This document shows positions 5,287-20,190 of a DNA stretch of 64,000 nucleotides, one piece after another. The notes under the pieces are model-generated. The model was not told the origin of the DNA. It saw only the letters and a program-made list of their open reading frames with translations, and searched no databases. A program made the translations under genes and the position numbers. Every line of letters starts with the position of its first letter. The first letter of the stretch is position 1. The stretch is from Promethearchaeota archaeon (GTDB lineage: Archaea > Asgardarchaeota > Lokiarchaeia > Sigyniarchaeales > SOKP01), in assembly GCA_016839705.1 (NCBI GenBank), contig JAEOTR010000046.1, positions 32,001-96,000 on the forward strand, in the 5' to 3' direction.

Positions 5287-6288
5287 CTACTCAGAATTTA
5301 AGAATTTAAGTGTTGCTCCAACCAAAGCACCTTCGTTTTTCTTCTGAGAATGACCTCCTTTTTTTAAAATTAATAAATTTTTCAAAGGTGATTCTAATAC
5401 TATCGAATTTTCTTTGAAATTGCTAAACCGGATTACTCTGTCGTTTTTACTGTGGATTAACATCACTCTTTTTGATAATTTCTCCCATTCCTCAGGAGAA
5501 AAATTGCTTTTTGTGTTATTAATAATTAGATAAGGAGAAAGTCTTTTGTTTTCTTCTTCAGTTGGGAGTAAATTTACACCTTTCATTAAATAACTTAGCC
5601 TCAATATTGGATTGAATTTTGGTAGGTTATTTTTATAGTAAGACATTGAAGAGATCGCTATAATCTTCCTTATTTCCATATTTTGAAACCCTGCACATAA
5701 AATAGTTAATGCTCCTATACTAAATCCTATACAATTGATTTTCAATGTTGAATAATCTCTATTAGATTGTACCCATTGTATTACGTCATTAAAGTCTTCA
5801 AGTCTTTTGAGAAAATTCCCCCTTTTCCCGGTCTTTTTAGATTTACCTGTTCCTCTGGCGTCATATACTAAAATAACATATCCTTGTAGTGCTAGAGGAT
5901 AATAGTAATATTGAAGGGATTCTTTTGTATCTGAAAAACCATGACAAATGAGGATTAGAGAATTTTTAGATTTAATTTTTGCCTGATTCTTGTGGTTAAT
6001 CAAGGTTCCTGAGAGGAATCCCTTAGAAACACTTATTTTTACTTCCTTTTCTTCTAAATCCTTTAGAGTTAAATCTAACCAGCGATCATACCAAAGGTCT
6101 CTAATTGACCAATAAATTTCAAAGGGGGTATATACGATCAAAAATGTTGTTACTGATAGTATAAAACATCGATTAAAAGCAACGGAGTAGCAAGGATTTC
6201 CTAACCAAATATTCACTCGCCAAATAAACCAACTAAAAAGAAAATCAATAAATATTAGAATAAGACGTTTAATATTATTTGATATCAC
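5287..6288 (-). CDS. Membrane-anchored alpha/beta-hydrolase
   Basis: Two N-terminal hydrophobic segments, HGF, YDARGTG, GFSIG, HSKND, GGH. Confidence 0.8.
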   Translation of the reverse strand: MISNNIKRLILIFIDFLFSWFIWRVNIWLGNPCYSVAFNRCFILSVTTFLIVYTPFEIYWSIRDLWYDRWLDLTLKDLEEKEVKISVSKGFLSGTLINHKNQAKIKSKNSLILICHGFSDTKESLQYYYYPLALQGYVILVYDARGTGKSKKTGKRGNFLKRLEDFNDVIQWVQSNRDYSTLKINCIGFSIGALTILCAGFQNMEIRKIIAISSMSYYKNNLPKFNPILRLSYLMKGVNLLPTEEENKRLSPYLIINNTKSNFSPEEWEKLSKRVMLIHSKNDRVIRFSNFKENSIVLESPLKNLLILKKGGHSQKKNEGALVGATLKFLNSE

Positions 6289-6413: not shown

Positions 6414-6743
6414 TTATAGCTTTGCCTTATCCGGGGGGCATCCAAAATCATGTCTAACTTTACAATCTCGTTTAGTAGAACTCCCTTCACATGGAGCGCA
6501 TTTAGCTTTTCTCATAATAGCTTCAATTTCATTTATTTCATAACCAAATGATTCCTCCTCTGTTTCATCTACTAACATCTCATCTTCAATCTTGTCGAGA
6601 TCATATTCAACGTCATCATCTAGATTATCTTTCCAATCTTCTAAATCTAAAATTTCATCCCCATCCTCATCTACTTTCCCTTTTGGAATTTCGAGATCAT
6701 CTTCTTCAACTGGAGGACTCTTTTTTTTTGCCATGTTTTTCAC
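6414..6743 (-). CDS. Small, highly acidic protein with C-terminal Cys cluster
   Basis: D/E-rich central region, then CAPC...C...H..C; likely start at the second Met (MAKKKSPP). Confidence 0.6.
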   Translation of the reverse strand: MKNMAKKKSPPVEEDDLEIPKGKVDEDGDEILDLEDWKDNLDDDVEYDLDKIEDEMLVDETEEESFGYEINEIEAIMRKAKCAPCEGSSTKRDCKVRHDFGCPPDKAKL

Positions 6744-6877: not shown

Positions 6878-8980
6878 TCAATCGTTTCGGTGAAACTTAA
6901 ACTTCATTATTTCATCCATTTGATCCAGTAACACTTCATTTTCGTGTATCTTGTTTAAAAATATCTTAATTTCATTAAGATTTCGCTCTAACTCTTCAGA
7001 AGAGTACATAGTATATTTTTCAATCTGAAATCGGTGTAGAAGATACTTTACTTGAATTTTATTAACTCCATTTTCTGAATATAAAAATTCTCTTACCTTA
7101 TCGAAATTTTTGTTAGACCTCAAGTATAACTTATCTAAATATAATAGATTAACTAAAGAATCGCTAATTTTATTAGAAGTCTGTATTAGATTCACAATTT
7201 CGTCTTGAAACCGTTCTTTTAATGACTGCAACTCTTCTGTTTTAAATATATGCCTAGTATGAAAGTCGTATTGTAACTGGGAAAGGAATTGTAATATTTT
7301 ACCAAAGGAGGATAACACAAAAGGAAATTTTTGTGGTATGGGTAATCTTTTTATAAAACTTCCGTTAAATCTCAAGTAACCCCCTCCCATATGAAGAGAA
7401 CTAAACAAAGTTTTAAATATGGTATCCATTAATGCAGAGTTCATAATAACTAAGAGGCTAAATAATTGATCCTTGTTAAAAGAGGAAATTTTTACAAAAT
7501 ATAATCCAGTCACATTTGTGTATATTCCCGGGTCAAATGTCCAAGTCAATTCTTTAGCTACTTCCCTGAAGATTAACTTTTGACCCGTGAACTCTTTCCA
7601 TATATCTGCAAAATTACTTTGATATTTGAAATAAGAAATAGGAATTGTTCTTTTCGCTATTTTAATTAATTTATCAAACTTGATATGATATTTTCCCACG
7701 TTTCCTGTTCCTATCAATAATAGATCTTTTATTGATGTTGGATTATTACTTATATTATTAAGGTGCTTAGACCAGTTTATAAAGCCATACGGCCTATAGA
7801 TTATCTTTAAATCACGGATTGATTCCGAAAATGGTTTATAATTATTATATAAATATTTTACCAAATCAATTTGACCAGAAATAGGAATTACAAATGCCGG
7901 AACTTTTTCTATTAAGTTTTGAGGTAATAATTGTGGTTTGATTTTGCTGTCTTCGTTCAGTTCATTCAATTTTTTGTATTTCTTTATTAGCACCATATTA
8001 TTAGCATTCGTCAATGATTTTTTAAGAGTTAAAATTATGGGATATGCCGCAGTTCGACCAAAAATAGGAATTGAGGAAATATTGATAATTTCTTTTAACT
8101 CGGTATTGTTAATGAGTAATTTTCGGATTTGAATTCCGTAATCAGCAGCTAAAAATTTATTCGTAGTTATCATAGATAAAAACCCATTGTGTTCTTTTAA
8201 TACTTCTAAGGCTTTTTCGATAAAAACTATAGAGAGATCAAATAACCGATAGGCTGATTTAAACCTCTTTTTTAATTTCTTTTTATATTCACTTGATTTA
8301 ATTTTCTTATTTTCAACATAAGGAGGATTACCTAAGATAATATCATACTTTTCGGAATTAAATTCTAAGAGAAAGTCTAAATTAAATAAATTGAATTTGA
8401 TATCGAATGAGTTAATTATTCTGTTAATTTCCTCAAGATGTAAACTATTAACGGTTAGATTAGGAAGTACAAGATTCGGTATATTTTCAGAATAAAGCCA
8501 ATAACTTAATCTTAACTTTGTAATAATATAGGCAGATTTCTCAATTTCGATTCCATAAAGATTATTCTGGATAATATTTTTTTTTATTTCATATTCATCT
8601 AATCCCGAGTTGAGAATTCTGAAGAAGTTATAAAGTATTTTTGCAGTTGAAATTAGAAATCTTCCAGATCCGCATGCAGGATCCAATATTTTAATAGTTT
8701 GGAGTTTTTTAATTAAGCTATTTCTTAATTTATTGTTTTTAGATAAAATGCATTGTAATTCTTTGAAATATGAATCCAAGTTTGAAAATTTTGATAAGGT
8801 AAAAAATTCTTCAAGATACATTTTGATGACTTTTAAAACAATATAATTCACAAGAGGTTTTGGGGTATAAATAGCTCCTAAACTCCTATCTTTAGTCTTT
8901 TGGTCATCTTTTGCCTTATCAAAATCAATAATAACCTTATCAAGATAACTTAAAAAATCTGGAGCGGATATCTTATTCAT
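6878..8980 (-). CDS. N6-adenine DNA methyltransferase (gamma class, TaqI/Eco57I-like)
   Basis: GAIYTP, ILDPACGSGRF, LYGIEI, GNPPY, C-terminal TRD-like region ending IKRLPIP. Confidence 0.9.
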   Translation of the reverse strand: MNKISAPDFLSYLDKVIIDFDKAKDDQKTKDRSLGAIYTPKPLVNYIVLKVIKMYLEEFFTLSKFSNLDSYFKELQCILSKNNKLRNSLIKKLQTIKILDPACGSGRFLISTAKILYNFFRILNSGLDEYEIKKNIIQNNLYGIEIEKSAYIITKLRLSYWLYSENIPNLVLPNLTVNSLHLEEINRIINSFDIKFNLFNLDFLLEFNSEKYDIILGNPPYVENKKIKSSEYKKKLKKRFKSAYRLFDLSIVFIEKALEVLKEHNGFLSMITTNKFLAADYGIQIRKLLINNTELKEIINISSIPIFGRTAAYPIILTLKKSLTNANNMVLIKKYKKLNELNEDSKIKPQLLPQNLIEKVPAFVIPISGQIDLVKYLYNNYKPFSESIRDLKIIYRPYGFINWSKHLNNISNNPTSIKDLLLIGTGNVGKYHIKFDKLIKIAKRTIPISYFKYQSNFADIWKEFTGQKLIFREVAKELTWTFDPGIYTNVTGLYFVKISSFNKDQLFSLLVIMNSALMDTIFKTLFSSLHMGGGYLRFNGSFIKRLPIPQKFPFVLSSFGKILQFLSQLQYDFHTRHIFKTEELQSLKERFQDEIVNLIQTSNKISDSLVNLLYLDKLYLRSNKNFDKVREFLYSENGVNKIQVKYLLHRFQIEKYTMYSSEELERNLNEIKIFLNKIHENEVLLDQMDEIMKFKFHRND

Positions 8981-11060: not shown

Positions 11061-11939
11061 TTATATTTTATAAAAATTATTTATAATTTCCTCGGGGTTA
11101 CTTTCAACATTGAATTTCTTTAAAAAATAACTACAAACATTTACAATATCCCTTTCTAAAAATGAATAAGCATTAGGATGATCTCGAGAGACCCATTGTA
11201 ACCAATCAATGATGAGGATATTACCCTCTTCATCTAAAACAATATTAAATTCACCTAAATCTCCATGAATCATCCCAACATTTTGAAAAATTGTTTTCAT
11301 TTGTTTTATGATTCGATTAAAAATTTTTTGAGGTTTTTTAATATTCTTATGATAAACTAATTCTTTTCCTCTTAAATATGACATAATAATTACATGACGA
11401 TTATACTCTATGGGTTTTGGGGTGTTTAATTTCAAAGGGTGAATTTTTTCTAACGCTTCAAATTCTCTTTTAGCAGCAAGTCTATTAACATAAAGCCAAG
11501 AATAGTGACTTCTATTACCCAAAAGATCTCTATATTTTTTAATAGCTCTAAAACTAGTTCGTCCCATGCGATAAAACTTTGCTGCAAAGATATTTTCATC
11601 ATCATCAATACAACTATATACATCTGATTCTTTTCCCTTTCCAATTAAGGGCCCAAGCTGGCTAATCACATTTTTCTCAACTAATGTGTGTAGAGCAAGC
11701 AAATCATAAGCTTTTGAGTTAAGTGTATAAGCGATTTCAAATTTCGAAGCATCTCTTATTATAAGATCAAGCTTATGAACCTTATTTAAGCGAAACAATG
11801 TTTCCTCCATCTTATATCTAGAGTAAAATTTAATATTTTTAATGGTCACATATTTAGATCTTTTCATTCCAATCTCTATTGCCATTAAAATTCTAAAATC
11901 TTCTTTTTCCAAAGTAGGTAAAAGATTAGCGATCTCCAC
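11061..11939 (-). CDS. rio2: RIO2 Ser/Thr kinase
   Basis: N-terminal winged helix (DFRILMAIEIGM), IGKGKESDVY, KFYRMGRTSF, IHGDLGEFNI, IDWLQ. Confidence 0.92.
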   Translation of the reverse strand: MEIANLLPTLEKEDFRILMAIEIGMKRSKYVTIKNIKFYSRYKMEETLFRLNKVHKLDLIIRDASKFEIAYTLNSKAYDLLALHTLVEKNVISQLGPLIGKGKESDVYSCIDDDENIFAAKFYRMGRTSFRAIKKYRDLLGNRSHYSWLYVNRLAAKREFEALEKIHPLKLNTPKPIEYNRHVIIMSYLRGKELVYHKNIKKPQKIFNRIIKQMKTIFQNVGMIHGDLGEFNIVLDEEGNILIIDWLQWVSRDHPNAYSFLERDIVNVCSYFLKKFNVESNPEEIINNFYKI

Positions 11940-11949
11940 GATTTCTCAG

Positions 11950-12732
11950 CTAGAATATATATTTTCGATAGGTTTTTAGAAAAGATATAAATTTGTATAT
12001 AGATGGTAGTTCAAAAATAACCACAGAGAAAAGATTAATTGATATGAAAACAATTATTTCACTTTTCAAAATATAGAAAATGGTTAATGTAGAACCGCTT
12101 TGGAACGTGAAGAGATAAATATCGAAATTTAAATACAGTATTAACCCAAAACAAATAATTAAACCAACAAGGGAGAAAATAATTATCTGGTTTTCAACCT
12201 CAATTAATCCGATAATTAAATTAATTGCTAAAAATAAAATTGTTAGCATAATAAAGATTCTGGAGGTATTTATCCATGATTTGAAAGAGGTATTCTGGAC
12301 TTCTAGATTTATGCTAGAAATTGGCCAAAGCAGAGCTGTGCTCAAATTTAATAAAGAAATTATTGGCATAATAATTACAGCTAAAATAGAAATGAAAAAA
12401 GCACGTATCGTCATAAATCTACTAATTATTAAAGAACTCACCCCCTCATTTTTTGCGGATTCCAACATAGCTTCAATTTTCTTTTGAATTTCAATAGGAA
12501 AATTTTTCTTTGTTAACATAAGCTGAATGTTGAGTTCAGGGAAATTAGAAATTAACTCTTTTAGCTGACCATACCCTATATTGTATCTTTGTCTGGTACT
12601 TTTTGATCCACTCCATAAATAGATCAATTCTTTTTCTTCATCCAAAATCACGCACATATCATGTGATAATAGTGCATGTTCTTCTTCTCTCCACTGAGAT
12701 TTGGAATCATCAAAAATGAATGTTCTCAGCAT
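11950..12732 (-). CDS. Gelsolin-like domain fused to a multi-pass membrane domain
   Basis: LLSHDMCVILDEEKELIYLWSGSKS resembles the gelsolin consensus L.S.D.FILD....IYVW.G..S; about 4 hydrophobic helices from residue ~110. Confidence 0.55.
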   Translation of the reverse strand: MLRTFIFDDSKSQWREEEHALLSHDMCVILDEEKELIYLWSGSKSTRQRYNIGYGQLKELISNFPELNIQLMLTKKNFPIEIQKKIEAMLESAKNEGVSSLIISRFMTIRAFFISILAVIIMPIISLLNLSTALLWPISSINLEVQNTSFKSWINTSRIFIMLTILFLAINLIIGLIEVENQIIIFSLVGLIICFGLILYLNFDIYLFTFQSGSTLTIFYILKSEIIVFISINLFSVVIFELPSIYKFISFLKTYRKYIF

Positions 12733-12824: not shown

Positions 12825-13739
12825 TTATCTTTTTTGGGACTGTTGATTAGCAAGTCTGATTTGAATTTCTTCCCAGATATTATTAATATACTCTCTATAG
12901 CTTTTAATAATCTGTTCATCCATAGAGGTAAATCTTTTCTGAAATTTCAGATATTCAGTTATAGGTTTTCGTCGAGATGCATCTATATATTTTTTACTAG
13001 GTTTAGATAACTTAAATTCTCCGTTAATTACTTCATAAAGGGGCCAAAAACCTGTTTCAGTTGCTAGTCTTCCGATTAAAATAGTATCCTTAGGTTCATA
13101 GCCCCATCCAGGTGGACATGGGGATAAAATATGAATATATTTAGTTCCTTTTATCTCTTTAGCTTTCTTAAATTTCTCGTATAAATCGAGAGGGTATGAG
13201 GCATTCGCAGTAGCAACATACGGGATATTATGTGCTTCCAATATCTTTGGCATATTCTTCTTGAGGGTAAGCTTCCCTTCAGGAGTCGTTGTAGTGCGGA
13301 CCCCTAATGGTGTTGATCCACTTCTTTGAACTCCAGTATTCATATAAGCTTCATTATCGTAACACGCATAAATAAAATTGGTACCCCTTTCTGCAGCTCC
13401 ACTTAAGGCTTGGATTCCTATATCAGTCGTACCTCCATCACCTGCAAAAGCAAGCACATTTATATCATCAGATAACCCTTTATCTTCAAGTGATGCTAGT
13501 ATCCCTGATGCAGAAGCACCTGTGGTTGCAAATGGAGTATGATAAACAGAAACTTTTGTAGTACAAAAACCCTGCATTCCATGCAGAACAGTTAGGCAAG
13601 ATGCTGGTACAGTTATGATTGTATTAGGACCTAATGCTTTAAGTGCAATCCTATAAATTAATGCCATGCCACATCCAGAGCACGCTCGAGTCCCGGGATA
13701 AATAAATTCTTCTTCAGGAAGATCCATAACATTTACCAC
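12825..13739 (-). CDS. porB: Pyruvate/2-oxoacid:ferredoxin oxidoreductase beta subunit
   Basis: ACSGCG, TPP motif GDGG...DNEAYMNTG, SPCPPGW. Confidence 0.92.
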   Translation of the reverse strand: MVNVMDLPEEEFIYPGTRACSGCGMALIYRIALKALGPNTIITVPASCLTVLHGMQGFCTTKVSVYHTPFATTGASASGILASLEDKGLSDDINVLAFAGDGGTTDIGIQALSGAAERGTNFIYACYDNEAYMNTGVQRSGSTPLGVRTTTTPEGKLTLKKNMPKILEAHNIPYVATANASYPLDLYEKFKKAKEIKGTKYIHILSPCPPGWGYEPKDTILIGRLATETGFWPLYEVINGEFKLSKPSKKYIDASRRKPITEYLKFQKRFTSMDEQIIKSYREYINNIWEEIQIRLANQQSQKR

Positions 13740-15568: not shown

Positions 15569-18253
15569 ATGGGAATTTCCGGGATTGATATGGTTTTTTC
15601 TAAAGAACTATTTATAGAAATAACTAATGAGATTAATGATTTAATCTTTATTTTAGATTTAGATTTTAGAATTGAGTATATGAACGAGAAGGTATACTCA
15701 AAACTATTAGGATATTCATATGAAGAATTGATTAGTAAAAAGATCAGTAATATCATCGATACTCACGATTTTGAAAAATTGAAAGAAAGTTTTGAGAGAA
15801 AGGATAACAGGTGTGAAAATTCAATTGATATCCAAATCTTATGCAAAGATGGTAAAAAATTATGGTTTGAGAGCAAGATTAAGATTATAACAAATAAGAA
15901 TGGGGAAAGGCGTATTCTTTTTATTTTAAAAGATATTTCGGAGAGAAAGCGAACGGAATTAATTGCTAAAGAATCAAAAGAAAAATATGAAAGTATAATT
16001 AAAACAATTAATGAAGGGTATTATGAGGTTGATCTAAAGGGAAATTTTACGTTTGTTAGTGAAGCGTTATGCAAATTTGTTGGATACACGCAAGACGAAT
16101 TGTTAGGGAAAAACTATACTATGATGACTGAGAGGAAAGCAAATAAATTAGTGTTTAAAACATTTAACACAGTTTTTAAAACTGAAATACAGAAAAATCT
16201 ATTTCAATTTCAGGTTATTAGAAAAAATGGGGAGAGAGCATTTTTTGAAACCTCTGTCTACTTGAAATATGCTACAAATGGTAGAAAAATTGGATTTTAC
16301 GGTATAGTAAGAGATATCACAGAAAGGAAAAAAGAAGAGGATTTAGAAGAGAAATTTAAAGTTGAACTTGCACAGACCGTAAGGCTGAGAACAAGAGAAT
16401 TAGAAGAATCTGAAGAGAAATATAGTAATCTCTTCCAACATTCAAATGATGGTATTTTCTTTCATGATTTGGAAGGAAATATTATTGATGTTAACCAAAA
16501 AGTGTTAGAACAATTCGGATATACCAAAACCGAAATATTGGCTCTTAATATTAGTCAACTCCATCCAATTAGCGAACTTGTAGAATCAAAAAAGGCTTTT
16601 GAACAAATTGCGAAAGATGGATATGTCAGGTTTGAAATTAACTTTAAGAAGAAGAATGGTGATATATTCCCCGCTGAAGTGTCTTCTAGTTTTTTTACTG
16701 TCGGTTCGGAGAGTTTTATCCAAGGAATTGTACGGGATATAACCACTCGAAAACAATCCGAATTAAGACTTAAGGATTCTGAAGAAAAGTATCGCAGTAT
16801 GATTAATAATTTAGATTTAGGATTTTATCAAGTGGATTGGCAAGGAAATTTATTAAATTATAATCCTGCTTTTAGTTCTTTGCTAGGATTTGAACCAAAT
16901 GAAAATTTATTAAAAGCTAATGTGAAACAGTTTTGGCAAAATCCCGTTGAGCGTAAGGCTTACCTAGATTTATTAAAAGACGAAGGGCTCATTAAAAATT
17001 ATATTGTACCTTCGCAAAAAAGGAATGGCCAAAAAATCATATTACAATTAAACTCTCATGTAATTACGAATGAATTTGGGGAACCCTTTAAGATTCAAGG
17101 GTTAATATCTGATATTACAGAAAAATTTGAGTTAGAACAAAAAGTGAAATTGTCTGAGAATAGGTATCGAAATTTAATAGAATCTGTACCCCTTTCAATA
17201 GCACTTGTTGATCAAACAGGTTTTGTTATTTATTGCAATCCTGCAACAGAGAAATTATTAGGATATAGTGAAGAAGAATTAATTGGTAAAGAATTTAGGA
17301 AACTTCCTGCAATAAATCAGAAGTATCTTCCAATGATGCTTGAACGGTTTCAAAAAGTTAGTAAAGGAGTAATATTACCACCGTTTGACGTGGAATTATA
17401 TAAAAAAGACGGTAGTGTAATTTGGATAAGCTATCAAACCTCATTAGTCAAGTTAGATGACGAGATTTTGATTCAGGCAGTTCTTAATGATATTACGGAG
17501 CGTAAAAGGGCTAATCTTCTTATTGAGGAGGAAATTCTAAAATTAAAAGAATTAGATCAAATTAGGAAAGATTTAATATCAAGAGTTTCTCATGAATTGA
17601 AAACTCCTCTTGTTTCTGTATGTGGCGCTTCTGAATTACTTTTAGAATTATTTAAAAATGAGTTAAAAACAGATATTATCGAATTAATTGAAATGATCGA
17701 GAAAGGTGGTACACGATTAAAACACTTAGTTGATAATTTACTTGATATAACTCGTATTGAATATAATAAATTTGAATTGAAAAGAGATATCGTCAATTTA
17801 AGTGAAATTATAAAAGACTGCGCAAAAGAGATGAGGTATCTGATAAAAATGCGAAAACTAGAACTTGTTTTCAACATTCCAGATGAATTACACGTAGAAA
17901 TTGATAAAATTAGAATGGAACAAGTAATATTGAATCTTTTATCTAATGCAATTAAAAACACGCCTCCCAATGGAAAAATTATAATGAAATTATATAAGAA
18001 AGGAGATTGGGCAGAATTTGCAATAAGCGATACCGGTATTGGTTTAACTCGAGAGGAAATGGATAGGCTCTTTACAAGATTTGGCAAGATCGAAAGATAT
18101 GGAGAAGGTTTAGAATATATTGATATTCAGGGTTCTGGTCTCGGATTATATATTTCCAAAGAAATTTTAGATTTACATGAAGGTCAAATTAGGGCGGAAT
18201 CTGCTGGGAGAGATAAAGGTTGCACATTTACAATAAAGATACCAATCAAATAA
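15569..18253 (+). CDS. Cytoplasmic multi-PAS (about 5) sensor histidine kinase
   Basis: Repeated PAS/PAC units ending DITERK, H-box SHELKTPL, NLLSNAIK, DTGIG, GSGLGL. Confidence 0.93.
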   Translation: MGISGIDMVFSKELFIEITNEINDLIFILDLDFRIEYMNEKVYSKLLGYSYEELISKKISNIIDTHDFEKLKESFERKDNRCENSIDIQILCKDGKKLWFESKIKIITNKNGERRILFILKDISERKRTELIAKESKEKYESIIKTINEGYYEVDLKGNFTFVSEALCKFVGYTQDELLGKNYTMMTERKANKLVFKTFNTVFKTEIQKNLFQFQVIRKNGERAFFETSVYLKYATNGRKIGFYGIVRDITERKKEEDLEEKFKVELAQTVRLRTRELEESEEKYSNLFQHSNDGIFFHDLEGNIIDVNQKVLEQFGYTKTEILALNISQLHPISELVESKKAFEQIAKDGYVRFEINFKKKNGDIFPAEVSSSFFTVGSESFIQGIVRDITTRKQSELRLKDSEEKYRSMINNLDLGFYQVDWQGNLLNYNPAFSSLLGFEPNENLLKANVKQFWQNPVERKAYLDLLKDEGLIKNYIVPSQKRNGQKIILQLNSHVITNEFGEPFKIQGLISDITEKFELEQKVKLSENRYRNLIESVPLSIALVDQTGFVIYCNPATEKLLGYSEEELIGKEFRKLPAINQKYLPMMLERFQKVSKGVILPPFDVELYKKDGSVIWISYQTSLVKLDDEILIQAVLNDITERKRANLLIEEEILKLKELDQIRKDLISRVSHELKTPLVSVCGASELLLELFKNELKTDIIELIEMIEKGGTRLKHLVDNLLDITRIEYNKFELKRDIVNLSEIIKDCAKEMRYLIKMRKLELVFNIPDELHVEIDKIRMEQVILNLLSNAIKNTPPNGKIIMKLYKKGDWAEFAISDTGIGLTREEMDRLFTRFGKIERYGEGLEYIDIQGSGLGLYISKEILDLHEGQIRAESAGRDKGCTFTIKIPIK

Positions 18254-18300
18254 GAAAATTAAATTATCATAAAATTTGAAAAAAATATCCATCGCTAGAA

Positions 18301-20190
18301 ATGAAATACGATAGAGGAGAAATTGAAGAGAGTTATAAAGATTTATTTGACTATTCTTTAGATATAATTTATGTTAGCGATCTGAGAGGAAATTTTCTTG
18401 ATGCTAATGATATAGCATTAGAAAGGCTTGGATATAAAAGAGAAGAGGTCCTTAACATTTCCTTTTTAGATTTACTTGACAAAGATGAATTAATAAAGGC
18501 TTTTGAAGTAATCAAGGAAATAAAAAATACAGGAAAACAATCAAAACATAGACAGTATAAACTTAAAACAAAATATGGAGAGATCATATACGTGGAAACA
18601 TTTGGAATTCCATTGAGAAAGAGCGGTAAAATTTATGCCATTTTAGGTATTGGAAACGATATTACAGACATAAAGTTTGCTGAGCAAAAATTAATTGAAT
18701 CAGAAGAAAAATATCGACATTTATTTCAGAGTTCTCCTTTTTTTGTGGGATTAGTAGACTTAAACGGGGTATTAATAGATTGCAATGATATCGTAAATAA
18801 GCTTCTTTCGGTTCACACAAAAGAGGATATTATTGGAAAGAATTTTAGAGAAATCTTTGCAATAAATGAGAAGAATAATGATGTTATCCCACTATTTAAG
18901 GCACTTTTTAAGAAGATAATTCAAGGTAAAACTCCAGAACCTATTGAATTTAAGTTAAATCGAACTGTAGGAGACTTTTTATGGTTAAATTTACGTGGAT
19001 CACTCATAAATATTGAAAAAAAGAATTTAATTCAATTCATAATTCAAGATATTTCAGACAAAAAAAAAGCTGAACAAAAATTAAAGGAGTCCGAAGAAAA
19101 ATATCGGTTTCTATTTGAAGATTCCCCATTTTCTATAATTCTAATAAATTCTAGGGGTATAGTCATTGATTGCAATCCTGCAATTCTATTATTAGGGGAT
19201 TATGAAAAAGAAGATTTGATAGATATCCCATTTAAGGATTTGAAAATAATACCTGAGGAATTCCTTCAAACTTTAATAGATTTATTTACACGTTTCATTA
19301 AAGGAGAAGTTTTACACCGTATAGATATTCAGTTATATAAAAAAGATAGTAGTCTAATTTGGGCTAATTTACAAGCTTCTCTGGTTGAAGTTGGTGGTGA
19401 AACATTCGTTCAGGTAATTTTACATGATATAACTAAACGAAAGGAAGCAGAACTTTTAATAAACGAAGAGATCCAAAAGTTAAAAGATCTAGATCAATTA
19501 CGAAAGGATTTGATCTCGAGGGTGTCACATGAATTAAAAACACCCCTAGTATCTGTATTTGCCAGTTCAGAATATCTTTTAAGTGAATATAAAGATAAAT
19601 TAGGAGAAGATGTATTGGAATTAATTCAAATGATACAAAAGGGTGGAAATAGATTGAAGCATTTAGTAAATAACCTATTAGATATCACAAGAATTGAATA
19701 TAATAAATTCAATCTAGAAAAAGAGACAATTAACCTTTCTGAAATAATAATAGAATGTTCAGAAGAGATGAAGTACCTAATTAGGGGGAGGAAGCTTGAG
19801 CTTGAATTAAATCTTCCACAGAATTTATACTTAAAAATAGATAGAATAAGAATACAACAAGTTATTACTAATTTACTCCTTAATGCAATAAAAAATACCC
19901 CACCTTACGGGAAAATAATAATAATCCTTTGGAAAAATGAGGACTGGGTAGAAATTTCGATAAAAGATACAGGAGTTGGGTTAACCAAAGAAGAAATGGA
20001 GATAATATTTACCAGATTTGGTAAAATTGAAAGAGTAGGAGAAGGATTAGAATATATTGACATTCAGGGCTCAGGATTAGGATTATTTATATCAAAAGAA
20101 ATAGCTCAGTTACATGGTGGATTAATTACCGCAAAATCAGAAGGTAGACATAAGGGAAGTATCTTTACCATAAAAATTCCCTTTGATTGA
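18301..20190 (+). CDS. Cytoplasmic multi-PAS (about 3) sensor histidine kinase, paralog of the upstream gene
   Basis: PAS repeats, SHELKTPL, NLLLNAIK, DTGVG, GEGLEYIDIQGSGLGL shared with the upstream kinase. Confidence 0.93.
   Translation: MKYDRGEIEESYKDLFDYSLDIIYVSDLRGNFLDANDIALERLGYKREEVLNISFLDLLDKDELIKAFEVIKEIKNTGKQSKHRQYKLKTKYGEIIYVETFGIPLRKSGKIYAILGIGNDITDIKFAEQKLIESEEKYRHLFQSSPFFVGLVDLNGVLIDCNDIVNKLLSVHTKEDIIGKNFREIFAINEKNNDVIPLFKALFKKIIQGKTPEPIEFKLNRTVGDFLWLNLRGSLINIEKKNLIQFIIQDISDKKKAEQKLKESEEKYRFLFEDSPFSIILINSRGIVIDCNPAILLLGDYEKEDLIDIPFKDLKIIPEEFLQTLIDLFTRFIKGEVLHRIDIQLYKKDSSLIWANLQASLVEVGGETFVQVILHDITKRKEAELLINEEIQKLKDLDQLRKDLISRVSHELKTPLVSVFASSEYLLSEYKDKLGEDVLELIQMIQKGGNRLKHLVNNLLDITRIEYNKFNLEKETINLSEIIIECSEEMKYLIRGRKLELELNLPQNLYLKIDRIRIQQVITNLLLNAIKNTPPYGKIIIILWKNEDWVEISIKDTGVGLTKEEMEIIFTRFGKIERVGEGLEYIDIQGSGLGLFISKEIAQLHGGLITAKSEGRHKGSIFTIKIPFD

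What the first reader, a model, noticed from the sequence alone, without database searches (positions are those of the whole stretch)
11950..12732. Gelsolin-like domain fused to a multi-pass membrane domain
Seen: the N-terminal ~95 aa contain LLSHDMCVILD....IYLWSGSKS followed by a long helix, which is the gelsolin-repeat signature, and then about 4 TM helices. Established: Asgard gelsolins regulate actin and the characterised ones I know of are soluble. Inference: an integral membrane actin anchor or regulator, relevant to the actin-supported protrusions of Lokiarchaeia. It ends 10 nt upstream of rio2 on the same strand.
Basis: partly seen in the sequence, partly recalled or inferred. Interest (0 to 1): 0.7.

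Follow-up and report, generated by a model that had tools for sequence, protein, structure and literature searches.

The report
Membrane-embedded gelsolin-fold protein of Lokiarchaeia
This gene, from an archaeon related to the ancestors of complex cells, encodes a membrane protein whose inside-facing head has the fold of the actin regulator gelsolin, a design I could not find described in papers, but the helix that gelsolins use to grip actin is poorly conserved here, so it may dock something other than actin.

Summary
Observation confirmed. The minus-strand ORF 11950-12732 (260 aa) has a true gelsolin fold at residues 1-95 (top structural match Thorarchaeota ProGel, PDB 7C2F) joined to a four-helix membrane bundle with no specific known relative. 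Charge bias puts the gelsolin head in the cytoplasm. The membrane module is found in 130 of 153 other genomes of this Lokiarchaeia order and essentially not outside it. The orthologue in cultured Ca. Lokiarchaeum ossiferum (NEF87_002464) is annotated as an uncharacterised membrane protein and is detected in 16 of 16 published proteomes. The actin-anchor reading is only partly supported. Across 21 matched genomes the long helix, which grips actin in known gelsolins, is the most variable part of this domain (identity 0.24, against 0.70 in two soluble gelsolin families), although Lokiactin is 84-100% identical. The orthologue is not among the Lokiactin co-IP hits, an assay biased against membrane proteins. 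The rio2 neighbourhood is local synteny only. A sister family (gelsolin plus two helices, beside a profilin gene) is the better anchor candidate. This scan has flagged the family many times in other genomes; I found no paper describing it.

The parts
11950..12732 (-). Gene for a 260-aa gelsolin-domain + 4-TM protein (Gel-4TM, paralogue 1)
   Evidence: ORF; 89 homologues, nearly all ~260 aa, 39-77% identity; pN/pS 0.36-0.38 in both domains among 8 same-genus orthologues, uncorrected
12448..12732 (-). Gelsolin-homology domain, residues 1-95, predicted cytoplasmic; keeps D25, W40, G42; lacks the Ca2+ ligands (R49, I61)
   Evidence: Model and fold searches; residue tallies
12547..12600 (-). Long helix, residues 45-62, equivalent to the actin-binding helix of gelsolin G1 and ProGel; variable across the order, basic in the own family
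   Evidence: Mean pairwise identity 0.24 against 0.70 in two soluble families, same 21 genomes; net charge -5 to +6
12409..12447 (-). Flexible linker and basic juxtamembrane segment, residues 96-108 (R105, R110 conserved in close relatives)
   Evidence: pLDDT under 50 at 96-103; K+R 3.1-3.5 per sequence
12340..12408 (-). TM1, residues 109-131
   Evidence: Hydropathy; model
12262..12339 (-). Outer loop 1, residues 132-157 (W136, short strand, aromatic 150); N-x-S/T sequon in 58 of 72 close relatives but few distant ones
12202..12261 (-). TM2, residues 158-177
12124..12186 (-). TM3, residues 183-203, with conserved G196 and Y200
12061..12123 (-). Outer loop 2, residues 204-224, the most conserved part of the membrane module (G/D204, L207, F208, aromatic 219, I221)
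11995..12060 (-). TM4, residues 225-246
11950..11994 (-). Basic cytoplasmic C-terminal helix, residues 247-260, and stop codon
   Evidence: K+R 3.0-3.8 per sequence
11061..11939 (-). rio2 kinase gene, downstream neighbour (context only, lineage-restricted synteny)
   Evidence: Pfam; neighbour tally
12825..13739 (-). 2-oxoacid:ferredoxin oxidoreductase beta-subunit-like gene, upstream neighbour, 92 nt away (context only)
   Evidence: Pfam TPP_enzyme_C; neighbour in 17 of 17 own-family loci, 0 of 12 elsewhere

Best explanation
An integral membrane scaffold that holds a Ca2+-independent gelsolin-fold docking module on the inner face of the cell membrane. Shown here by computation: the fold, the four-helix bundle, N-in/C-in topology, order-wide conservation of the fusion; expression of the L. 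ossiferum orthologue comes from published proteomes. Inferred: the domain descends from a ProGel-like actin binder but no longer grips Lokiactin through the canonical helix-in-cleft contact. It more likely docks another cortical partner through what is conserved (the H24-D25 / W40-G42-P43 corner and the P79-x-x-I82-Q83 short helix), as the gelsolin domain of Sec23 serves a small GTPase and not actin. Candidate partners, all untested: anionic inositol lipids (paralogue 2 lies beside the inositol-lipid synthase gene), a HEAT-repeat protein encoded next to it in five genera, or a small GTPase.
For: Helix 45-62 is less conserved than the rest of the domain (ratio 0.55) whereas in soluble 2DGel and single-domain families it is more conserved (1.25, 1.33), same 21 genomes; Lokiactin is 84-100% identical in the order. 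The helix signature of soluble gelsolins (small residue at 54; K/R at 50) is 21/21 in both controls and 0/21 and 6/21 here; the hydrophobic residue at 51 of ProGel-type proteins (16/16 short proteins of other Asgard orders) is 0/21. Helix net charge runs from -5 to +6. H24, D25, Y38, G42, P79, L90 stay 85-100% identical, and both domains are under purifying selection, so the domain is not decaying. The L. ossiferum orthologue is expressed but not among the co-IP-enriched proteins, while the 2DGel control is (log2 3.97). Sec23 precedent: PMC11914678.
Against: Every Asgard gelsolin type tested so far binds or regulates actin (PMC7444086, PMC9433394). The whole domain evolves faster than the controls (0.35 against about 0.6), so weak or lineage-specific actin contacts could hide. 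Which helix positions face actin is inferred from homology and helical geometry; I could not read coordinates. The co-IP is biased against membrane proteins by the authors' own statement and the stored table is cut. No alternative partner is shown; gene neighbourhood is weak evidence.
Confidence: 0.45

Rival explanations
1. Low-affinity cortical tether for Lokiactin filaments. The domain side-binds filaments like ProGel; confinement in the membrane supplies avidity, so filaments are held or bundled along the membrane of the cell body and protrusions, without Ca2+ control.
For: Closest structure is ProGel, solved in complex with actin. ProGel is itself a very weak binder (Kd 337 uM) that bundles only at high concentration (PMC7444086), which membrane confinement could mimic. 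Cytoplasmic topology. The helix is basic in the own family. The sister two-TM family sits beside a profilin-domain gene in 16 of 17 loci and falls on the same side of a branch with SH-aLRT 95. Lokiactin is present in the genome.
Against: Actin-facing helix positions are variable and charged. Not co-IP-enriched. About 55-fold lower signal than Lokiactin in the proteome table (log2 15.9 against 21.7). Not found in four genomes of one genus that are 89-100% complete and have Lokiactin. Not found outside the order, although Hodarchaeales also form protrusions (PMC13716822).
Confidence: 0.35
2. The domain binds one of the faster-evolving actin paralogues and not Lokiactin, which would explain a variable helix.
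For: The genome has two further actin-family genes; the 373-aa one is only 47-94% identical across the order.
Against: That paralogue is present in the genus where Gel-4TM was not found (4 of 4 genomes). The helix lacks hydrophobic cleft residues in any lineage of paralogue 1.
Confidence: 0.08
4. A role with Rio2 in ribosome maturation, or an outside-facing domain.
For: 10-nt gap to rio2.
Against: rio2 is adjacent in 0 of 12 loci outside the own family. The sequence begins directly with strand 1, with no signal peptide, and charge bias gives N-in.
Confidence: 0.04

Closest known systems
Thorarchaeota ProGel (PDB 7C2F chain B; Akil et al. 2020, PMC7444086)
   Same: Single gelsolin domain of the same size and fold (rmsd 2.5 A over 84 residues, about 20% identity); WxG motif; no Ca2+ ligands at the type I and II positions in this protein.
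   Different: ProGel is soluble and consists of the domain alone. Here a four-helix membrane bundle follows, and the helix residues F48/L51 of ProGel are replaced by polar or charged ones.
Asgard 1DGelX and other single-domain gelsolins with tails (PMC7444086; B35_GelX, B35_Gel1/2 in bioRxiv 2025.11.30.690169)
   Same: One N-terminal gelsolin domain plus a C-terminal extension.
   Different: Their extensions are coiled-coil or disordered, not membrane helices; the soluble single-domain family tested here keeps a strongly conserved helix (0.70).
Asgard 2DGel (PDB 7C2G, 7WHF, 7WHG; PMC9433394)
   Same: D-W-G core, including the invariant D25.
   Different: Two domains, WH2-like motif, Ca2+ ligands E49 and D61 in 21 of 21; here one domain, D61 in 0 of 21, E/D49 in 5 of 21.
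Gelsolin-like domain of Sec23/Sec24 (COPII)
   Same: A single gelsolin fold working at a membrane; serves as precedent for a non-actin role.
   Different: Sec23 is a soluble five-domain coat protein; none of its other domains is present here.
asCOG cog.001154 'Uncharacterized membrane protein' (supplement of PMC9834061, ORTHOMCL532)
   Same: By gene order (Eco57I-type methylase, this row, TFIIB, M18 peptidase, RtcB) this is the L. ossiferum / P. syntrophicum orthologue.
   Different: That annotation does not recognise the gelsolin domain.

Membership tests
Gelsolin-homology domain superfamily | Mixed beta-sheet with one long and one short helix (gelsolin fold) | tested here: met
Gelsolin-homology domain superfamily | D-W-G core motif | tested here: met
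   D25, W40, G42; D25 21/21, G42 21/21, W/Y40 21/21
Gelsolin-homology domain superfamily | Pfam PF00626 gathering score (21 bits) | tested here: not met
   16.7 bits, E 0.0067; 23 of 75 relatives hit at E up to 0.1
Asgard ProGel | Protein is the domain alone and soluble | tested here: not met
   Four TM helices follow
Asgard ProGel | No Ca2+-binding sites | tested here: met
   R49 and I61 at the E and D ligand positions; E/D49 returns in some relatives, including the cultured strains
Asgard ProGel | Conserved long-helix signature (K/R50, hydrophobic 51, small 54) | tested here: not met
   6/21, 0/21, 0/21 against 13/16, 16/16, 16/16 in short gelsolins of other Asgard orders
Asgard ProGel | Binds actin at the subdomain 1/3 cleft, bundles filaments | not testable with these tools
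   Needs a binding assay
Asgard 2DGel | Two gelsolin domains joined by a WH2-like motif (LRRV/LKDV) | tested here: not met
   One domain; LIIS at the matching place (family consensus LKFS)
Asgard 2DGel | Type I and II Ca2+ ligands | tested here: not met
Asgard 1DGelX | C-terminal coiled-coil domain X | tested here: not met
   The C-terminal part is a hydrophobic four-helix bundle
Known four-TM families (claudin, tetraspanin, MARVEL, connexin, cornichon) | Specific sequence or fold match of the membrane module | tested here: inconclusive
   Best Foldseek E 0.39; VIA hits are generic up-down bundles, Z up to 14.8 for a designed protein

The most novel reading that the evidence does not exclude
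This family, or its sister with two membrane helices, is the first integral-membrane actin-binding protein of Asgard archaea: a one-piece link between Lokiactin filaments and the membrane that shapes protrusions, a design not known to me in eukaryotes, which use soluble adaptors.
Probability: 0.35. Interest if true: 0.85.

Novelty: new variant of a known kind. Interest (0 to 1): 0.58.

Why it matters
How Lokiactin filaments are coupled to the membrane in cells that crawl on actin-filled protrusions is open; the published co-IP under-samples membrane proteins by its authors' own account. A clade of membrane-fused gelsolin domains, present and expressed in a cultured strain under known locus tags (NEF87_002464, NEF87_002645; DSAG12_00505, DSAG12_00585), makes the question directly testable. 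If paralogue 1 does not bind actin, it is instead an archaeal case of the gelsolin fold re-used at a membrane, relevant to how Sec23 gained its gelsolin domain (Asgard Sec23-like proteins lack it, PMC11914678).

Tried and rejected
No longer fusion forms were found, weak evidence. No NCBIfam match for the window protein; ESM Atlas gave only an unnamed Promethearchaeota cluster. The membrane module has no specific match in Pfam or PDB. RbcX, RVT_3 and PTS EIIC hits were rejected as weak and at odds with the fold. A WH2-like reading of LKFS (101-104) was rejected: not conserved, and LIIS in this protein. A general lipid-binding basic helix was rejected as a family-wide trait: net charge -5 to +6. 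Co-occurrence with an actin paralogue was not seen. The sigma-70 promoter scan was at chance level and does not suit archaea. No paper names the orthologues in its main text; supplements of PMC13716822 and PMC11914678, which list gelsolin-domain proteins, are not held, so a listing there cannot be excluded. The domain tree is the quick one, 94 columns; two long rows (L208, P0174) fell outside the membrane clade and are of unsure place.

Full report
Observation. The finding is a minus-strand ORF, 11950-12732, 260 aa. It ends 10 nt before the GTG of rio2 (Rio2_N and RIO1 domains) and starts 92 nt after an oxidoreductase beta-subunit-like gene. On sequence alone the gelsolin signal is weak (Pfam E 0.0067, under the cut-off). 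With a 75-sequence alignment the best PDB match is Thorarchaeota ProGel 7C2F_B at E 0.0021, followed by villin, CapG, adseverin and gelsolin. The AlphaFold2 model (pLDDT 85.6) shows strands 2-8, 13-16, 26-31, 36-41, helix 47-62, strand 70-73 and helix 80-95. Foldseek ranks ProGel first (E 5.5e-5, TM 0.70 by target) and fills the list with gelsolin-fold proteins; VIA gives Z 10.4, rmsd 2.5 A over 84 of 88 residues. The fold is settled.

Membrane part and topology. Four hydrophobic helices lie at about 109-131, 158-177, 183-203 and 225-246. Modelled alone the module is a confident up-down four-helix bundle (pLDDT 94.5, pTM 0.87) with a small two-stranded cap formed by the two long loops. It has no specific relative: best Foldseek E 0.39, VIA hits generic. 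Mean K+R counts in three sequence groups are 3.1-3.5 before TM1, 0.7-1.3 in loop 1, 0.1-1.8 in the short loop 2, 0.6-1.3 in loop 3 and 3.0-3.8 after TM4. By the positive-inside rule both ends, and so the gelsolin domain, are cytoplasmic. There is no signal peptide. The linker 96-103 is low-confidence, so no fixed packing of the two parts is predicted.

Distribution. There are 89 close homologues, nearly all about 260 aa, those with names from Asgard archaea, and a second tier of full-length distant ones. The profile of the membrane module alone matches 130 of 153 other genomes of the order and only 2 of 246 outside it, both weakly. In 29 Asgard genomes of other orders the 30 best gelsolin-type hits examined have no TM helix. 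It was not found in four genomes of one genus that are 89-100% complete, so it may be dispensable. Orthologues exist in the cultured strains: NEF87_002464 (UYP46179.1) of Ca. L. ossiferum, DSAG12_00505 of P. syntrophicum and K9W44_05135 of Ca. H. repetitus; the first is 25% identical over 228 aa. By gene order the supplement of PMC9834061 lists it as asCOG cog.001154, 'Uncharacterized membrane protein'. A quick tree of 117 gelsolin domains puts this family, a second 4-TM paralogue, a 2-TM family and truncated soluble forms on one side of a branch with SH-aLRT 95 (94 columns, two long rows outside).

Expression. The proteome table of bioRxiv 2025.11.30.690169 uses other identifiers. GNAMCCOK_02486 has mass 54.82 kDa, which equals the monoisotopic mass of UYP46182 (54.823); the three genes before it are consecutive with no tRNA between. 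UYP46179 is therefore GNAMCCOK_02483: detected in 16 of 16 proteome columns, mean log2 15.91, against 21.69 for Lokiactin. It does not occur in the stored co-IP sheet, which is sorted by enrichment and covers all enriched rows. The authors state that the co-IP under-represents membrane proteins, so this is weak evidence.

Does it bind actin? [quoted passage not shown] Lokiactin is 84-100% identical across the order, so a binding helix should be conserved. In the same 21 genomes, positions 45-62 have mean pairwise identity 0.70 in 2DGel domain 1 (whose L. ossiferum member is co-IP-enriched) and 0.70 in a soluble single-domain family (not itself shown to bind actin), but 0.24 in Gel-4TM; relative to the rest of the domain the ratios are 1.25, 1.33 and 0.55. 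The small residue at 54, universal in the soluble families, is absent in all 21; the hydrophobic residue at 51 of ProGel-type proteins (16 of 16) is absent in all 21. The helix is basic in the own family but its net charge runs from -5 to +6 across the order. Which positions face actin is inferred from homology and helix geometry. What is conserved is W14, E16, H24, D25, Y38, W40, G42, P79 and L90 in the head and G196, Y200, F208, aromatic 219 and I221 in the membrane part; most head positions are fold-level, H24 is specific to this family. Both domains show purifying selection within the genus (pN/pS 0.36-0.38, uncorrected). The Ca2+ ligand positions are R49 and I61, so this protein should not be Ca2+-gated.

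Neighbourhood. rio2 is within 1.5 kb in 13 of 17 own-family loci and 0 of 12 in the other families, where TFIIB, a methylase or a HEAT-repeat gene are found. It is local synteny. The paralogues have steadier neighbours: the 2-TM family a profilin-domain gene (16 of 17), paralogue 2 a CDP-alcohol phosphatidyltransferase (12 of 12). The 2-TM family also keeps the ProGel-like hydrophobic helix residues.

Mechanism. Most likely (0.45) the protein is a membrane scaffold whose ProGel-derived head docks a partner other than the canonical actin cleft, with Sec23 as precedent for such re-use. A weak, avidity-driven tether for Lokiactin remains a close rival (0.35), because ProGel itself binds with Kd 337 uM and bundles only when concentrated. 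Binding to an actin paralogue, an internal regulatory role and a Rio2 link are minor.

Novelty. The described Asgard architectures are ProGel, 1DGelX and 2DGel with soluble tails. My searches found no paper on a membrane-integral gelsolin domain, though two supplements that list gelsolin-domain proteins are not held. This scan has reported the family many times in other genomes; those notes agree on architecture and are not independent support. Verdict: real, new variant of a known kind, interest 0.58.

Noticed in passing
L053:7252-7989 (-) and L055:7488-8234 (+); loci L198-L214: Sister family: gelsolin domain plus two TM helices (NEF87_002645, DSAG12_00585), beside a profilin-domain gene in 16 of 17 loci; keeps a hydrophobic residue at helix position 51 (11/11) and mostly at 48, as ProGel does. 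Found in 11 of 14 genomes of the cultured strains' family and 6 of 134 of the own family; not found in this genome. Detected in 15 of 16 proteomes, not co-IP-enriched.
   Followed up: partly
L056:7860-8567 (-), L054:8388-8666 (-), L094, L096, L098-L100, L197: Second 4-TM paralogue, beside a CDP-alcohol phosphatidyltransferase (named PIPS in the L. ossiferum paper) in 12 of 12 loci examined. At the same position L. ossiferum has only a 92-aa soluble gelsolin domain (NEF87_004255), and three genomes of another genus likewise: apparent loss of the membrane module.
   Followed up: partly
P0182, P0184 (positions 25 and 49 in window numbering): The L. ossiferum and P. syntrophicum orthologues have D25 plus E49, the two side-chain ligands of a type II Ca2+ site, in a single-domain gelsolin; PMC7444086 proposed such an intermediate and did not find one. 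E/D49 in 14 of 36 distant relatives. Untested.
   Followed up: partly
L008:2416-3456 (+); also L016, L172, L183, L192: A ~346-aa HEAT-repeat gene lies next to Gel-4TM in five genera of two families, possibly the older neighbour.
   Followed up: partly
G000:C32:98128-99273 (L058), 2.1 kb beyond the window end: The Lokiactin gene is on the same contig, about 53 kb from the gene; two more actin-family genes and at least nine soluble gelsolin-like genes lie elsewhere in the genome.
   Followed up: yes
window 5287-6288 and 6878-8980 (-): An alpha/beta hydrolase and a type II restriction-modification methylase-like gene lie downstream. L. ossiferum has the same order (gene, methylase, hydrolase); the hydrolases are homologous (30%, E 2e-44), the methylases gave no BLAST match.
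   Followed up: partly
window 6414-6743 (-): 109-aa very acidic protein with a C-terminal four-cysteine cluster; no Pfam match.
   Followed up: no
window 15569-20190 (+): Two tandem multi-PAS histidine-kinase-like genes, judged from the sequence only.
   Followed up: no
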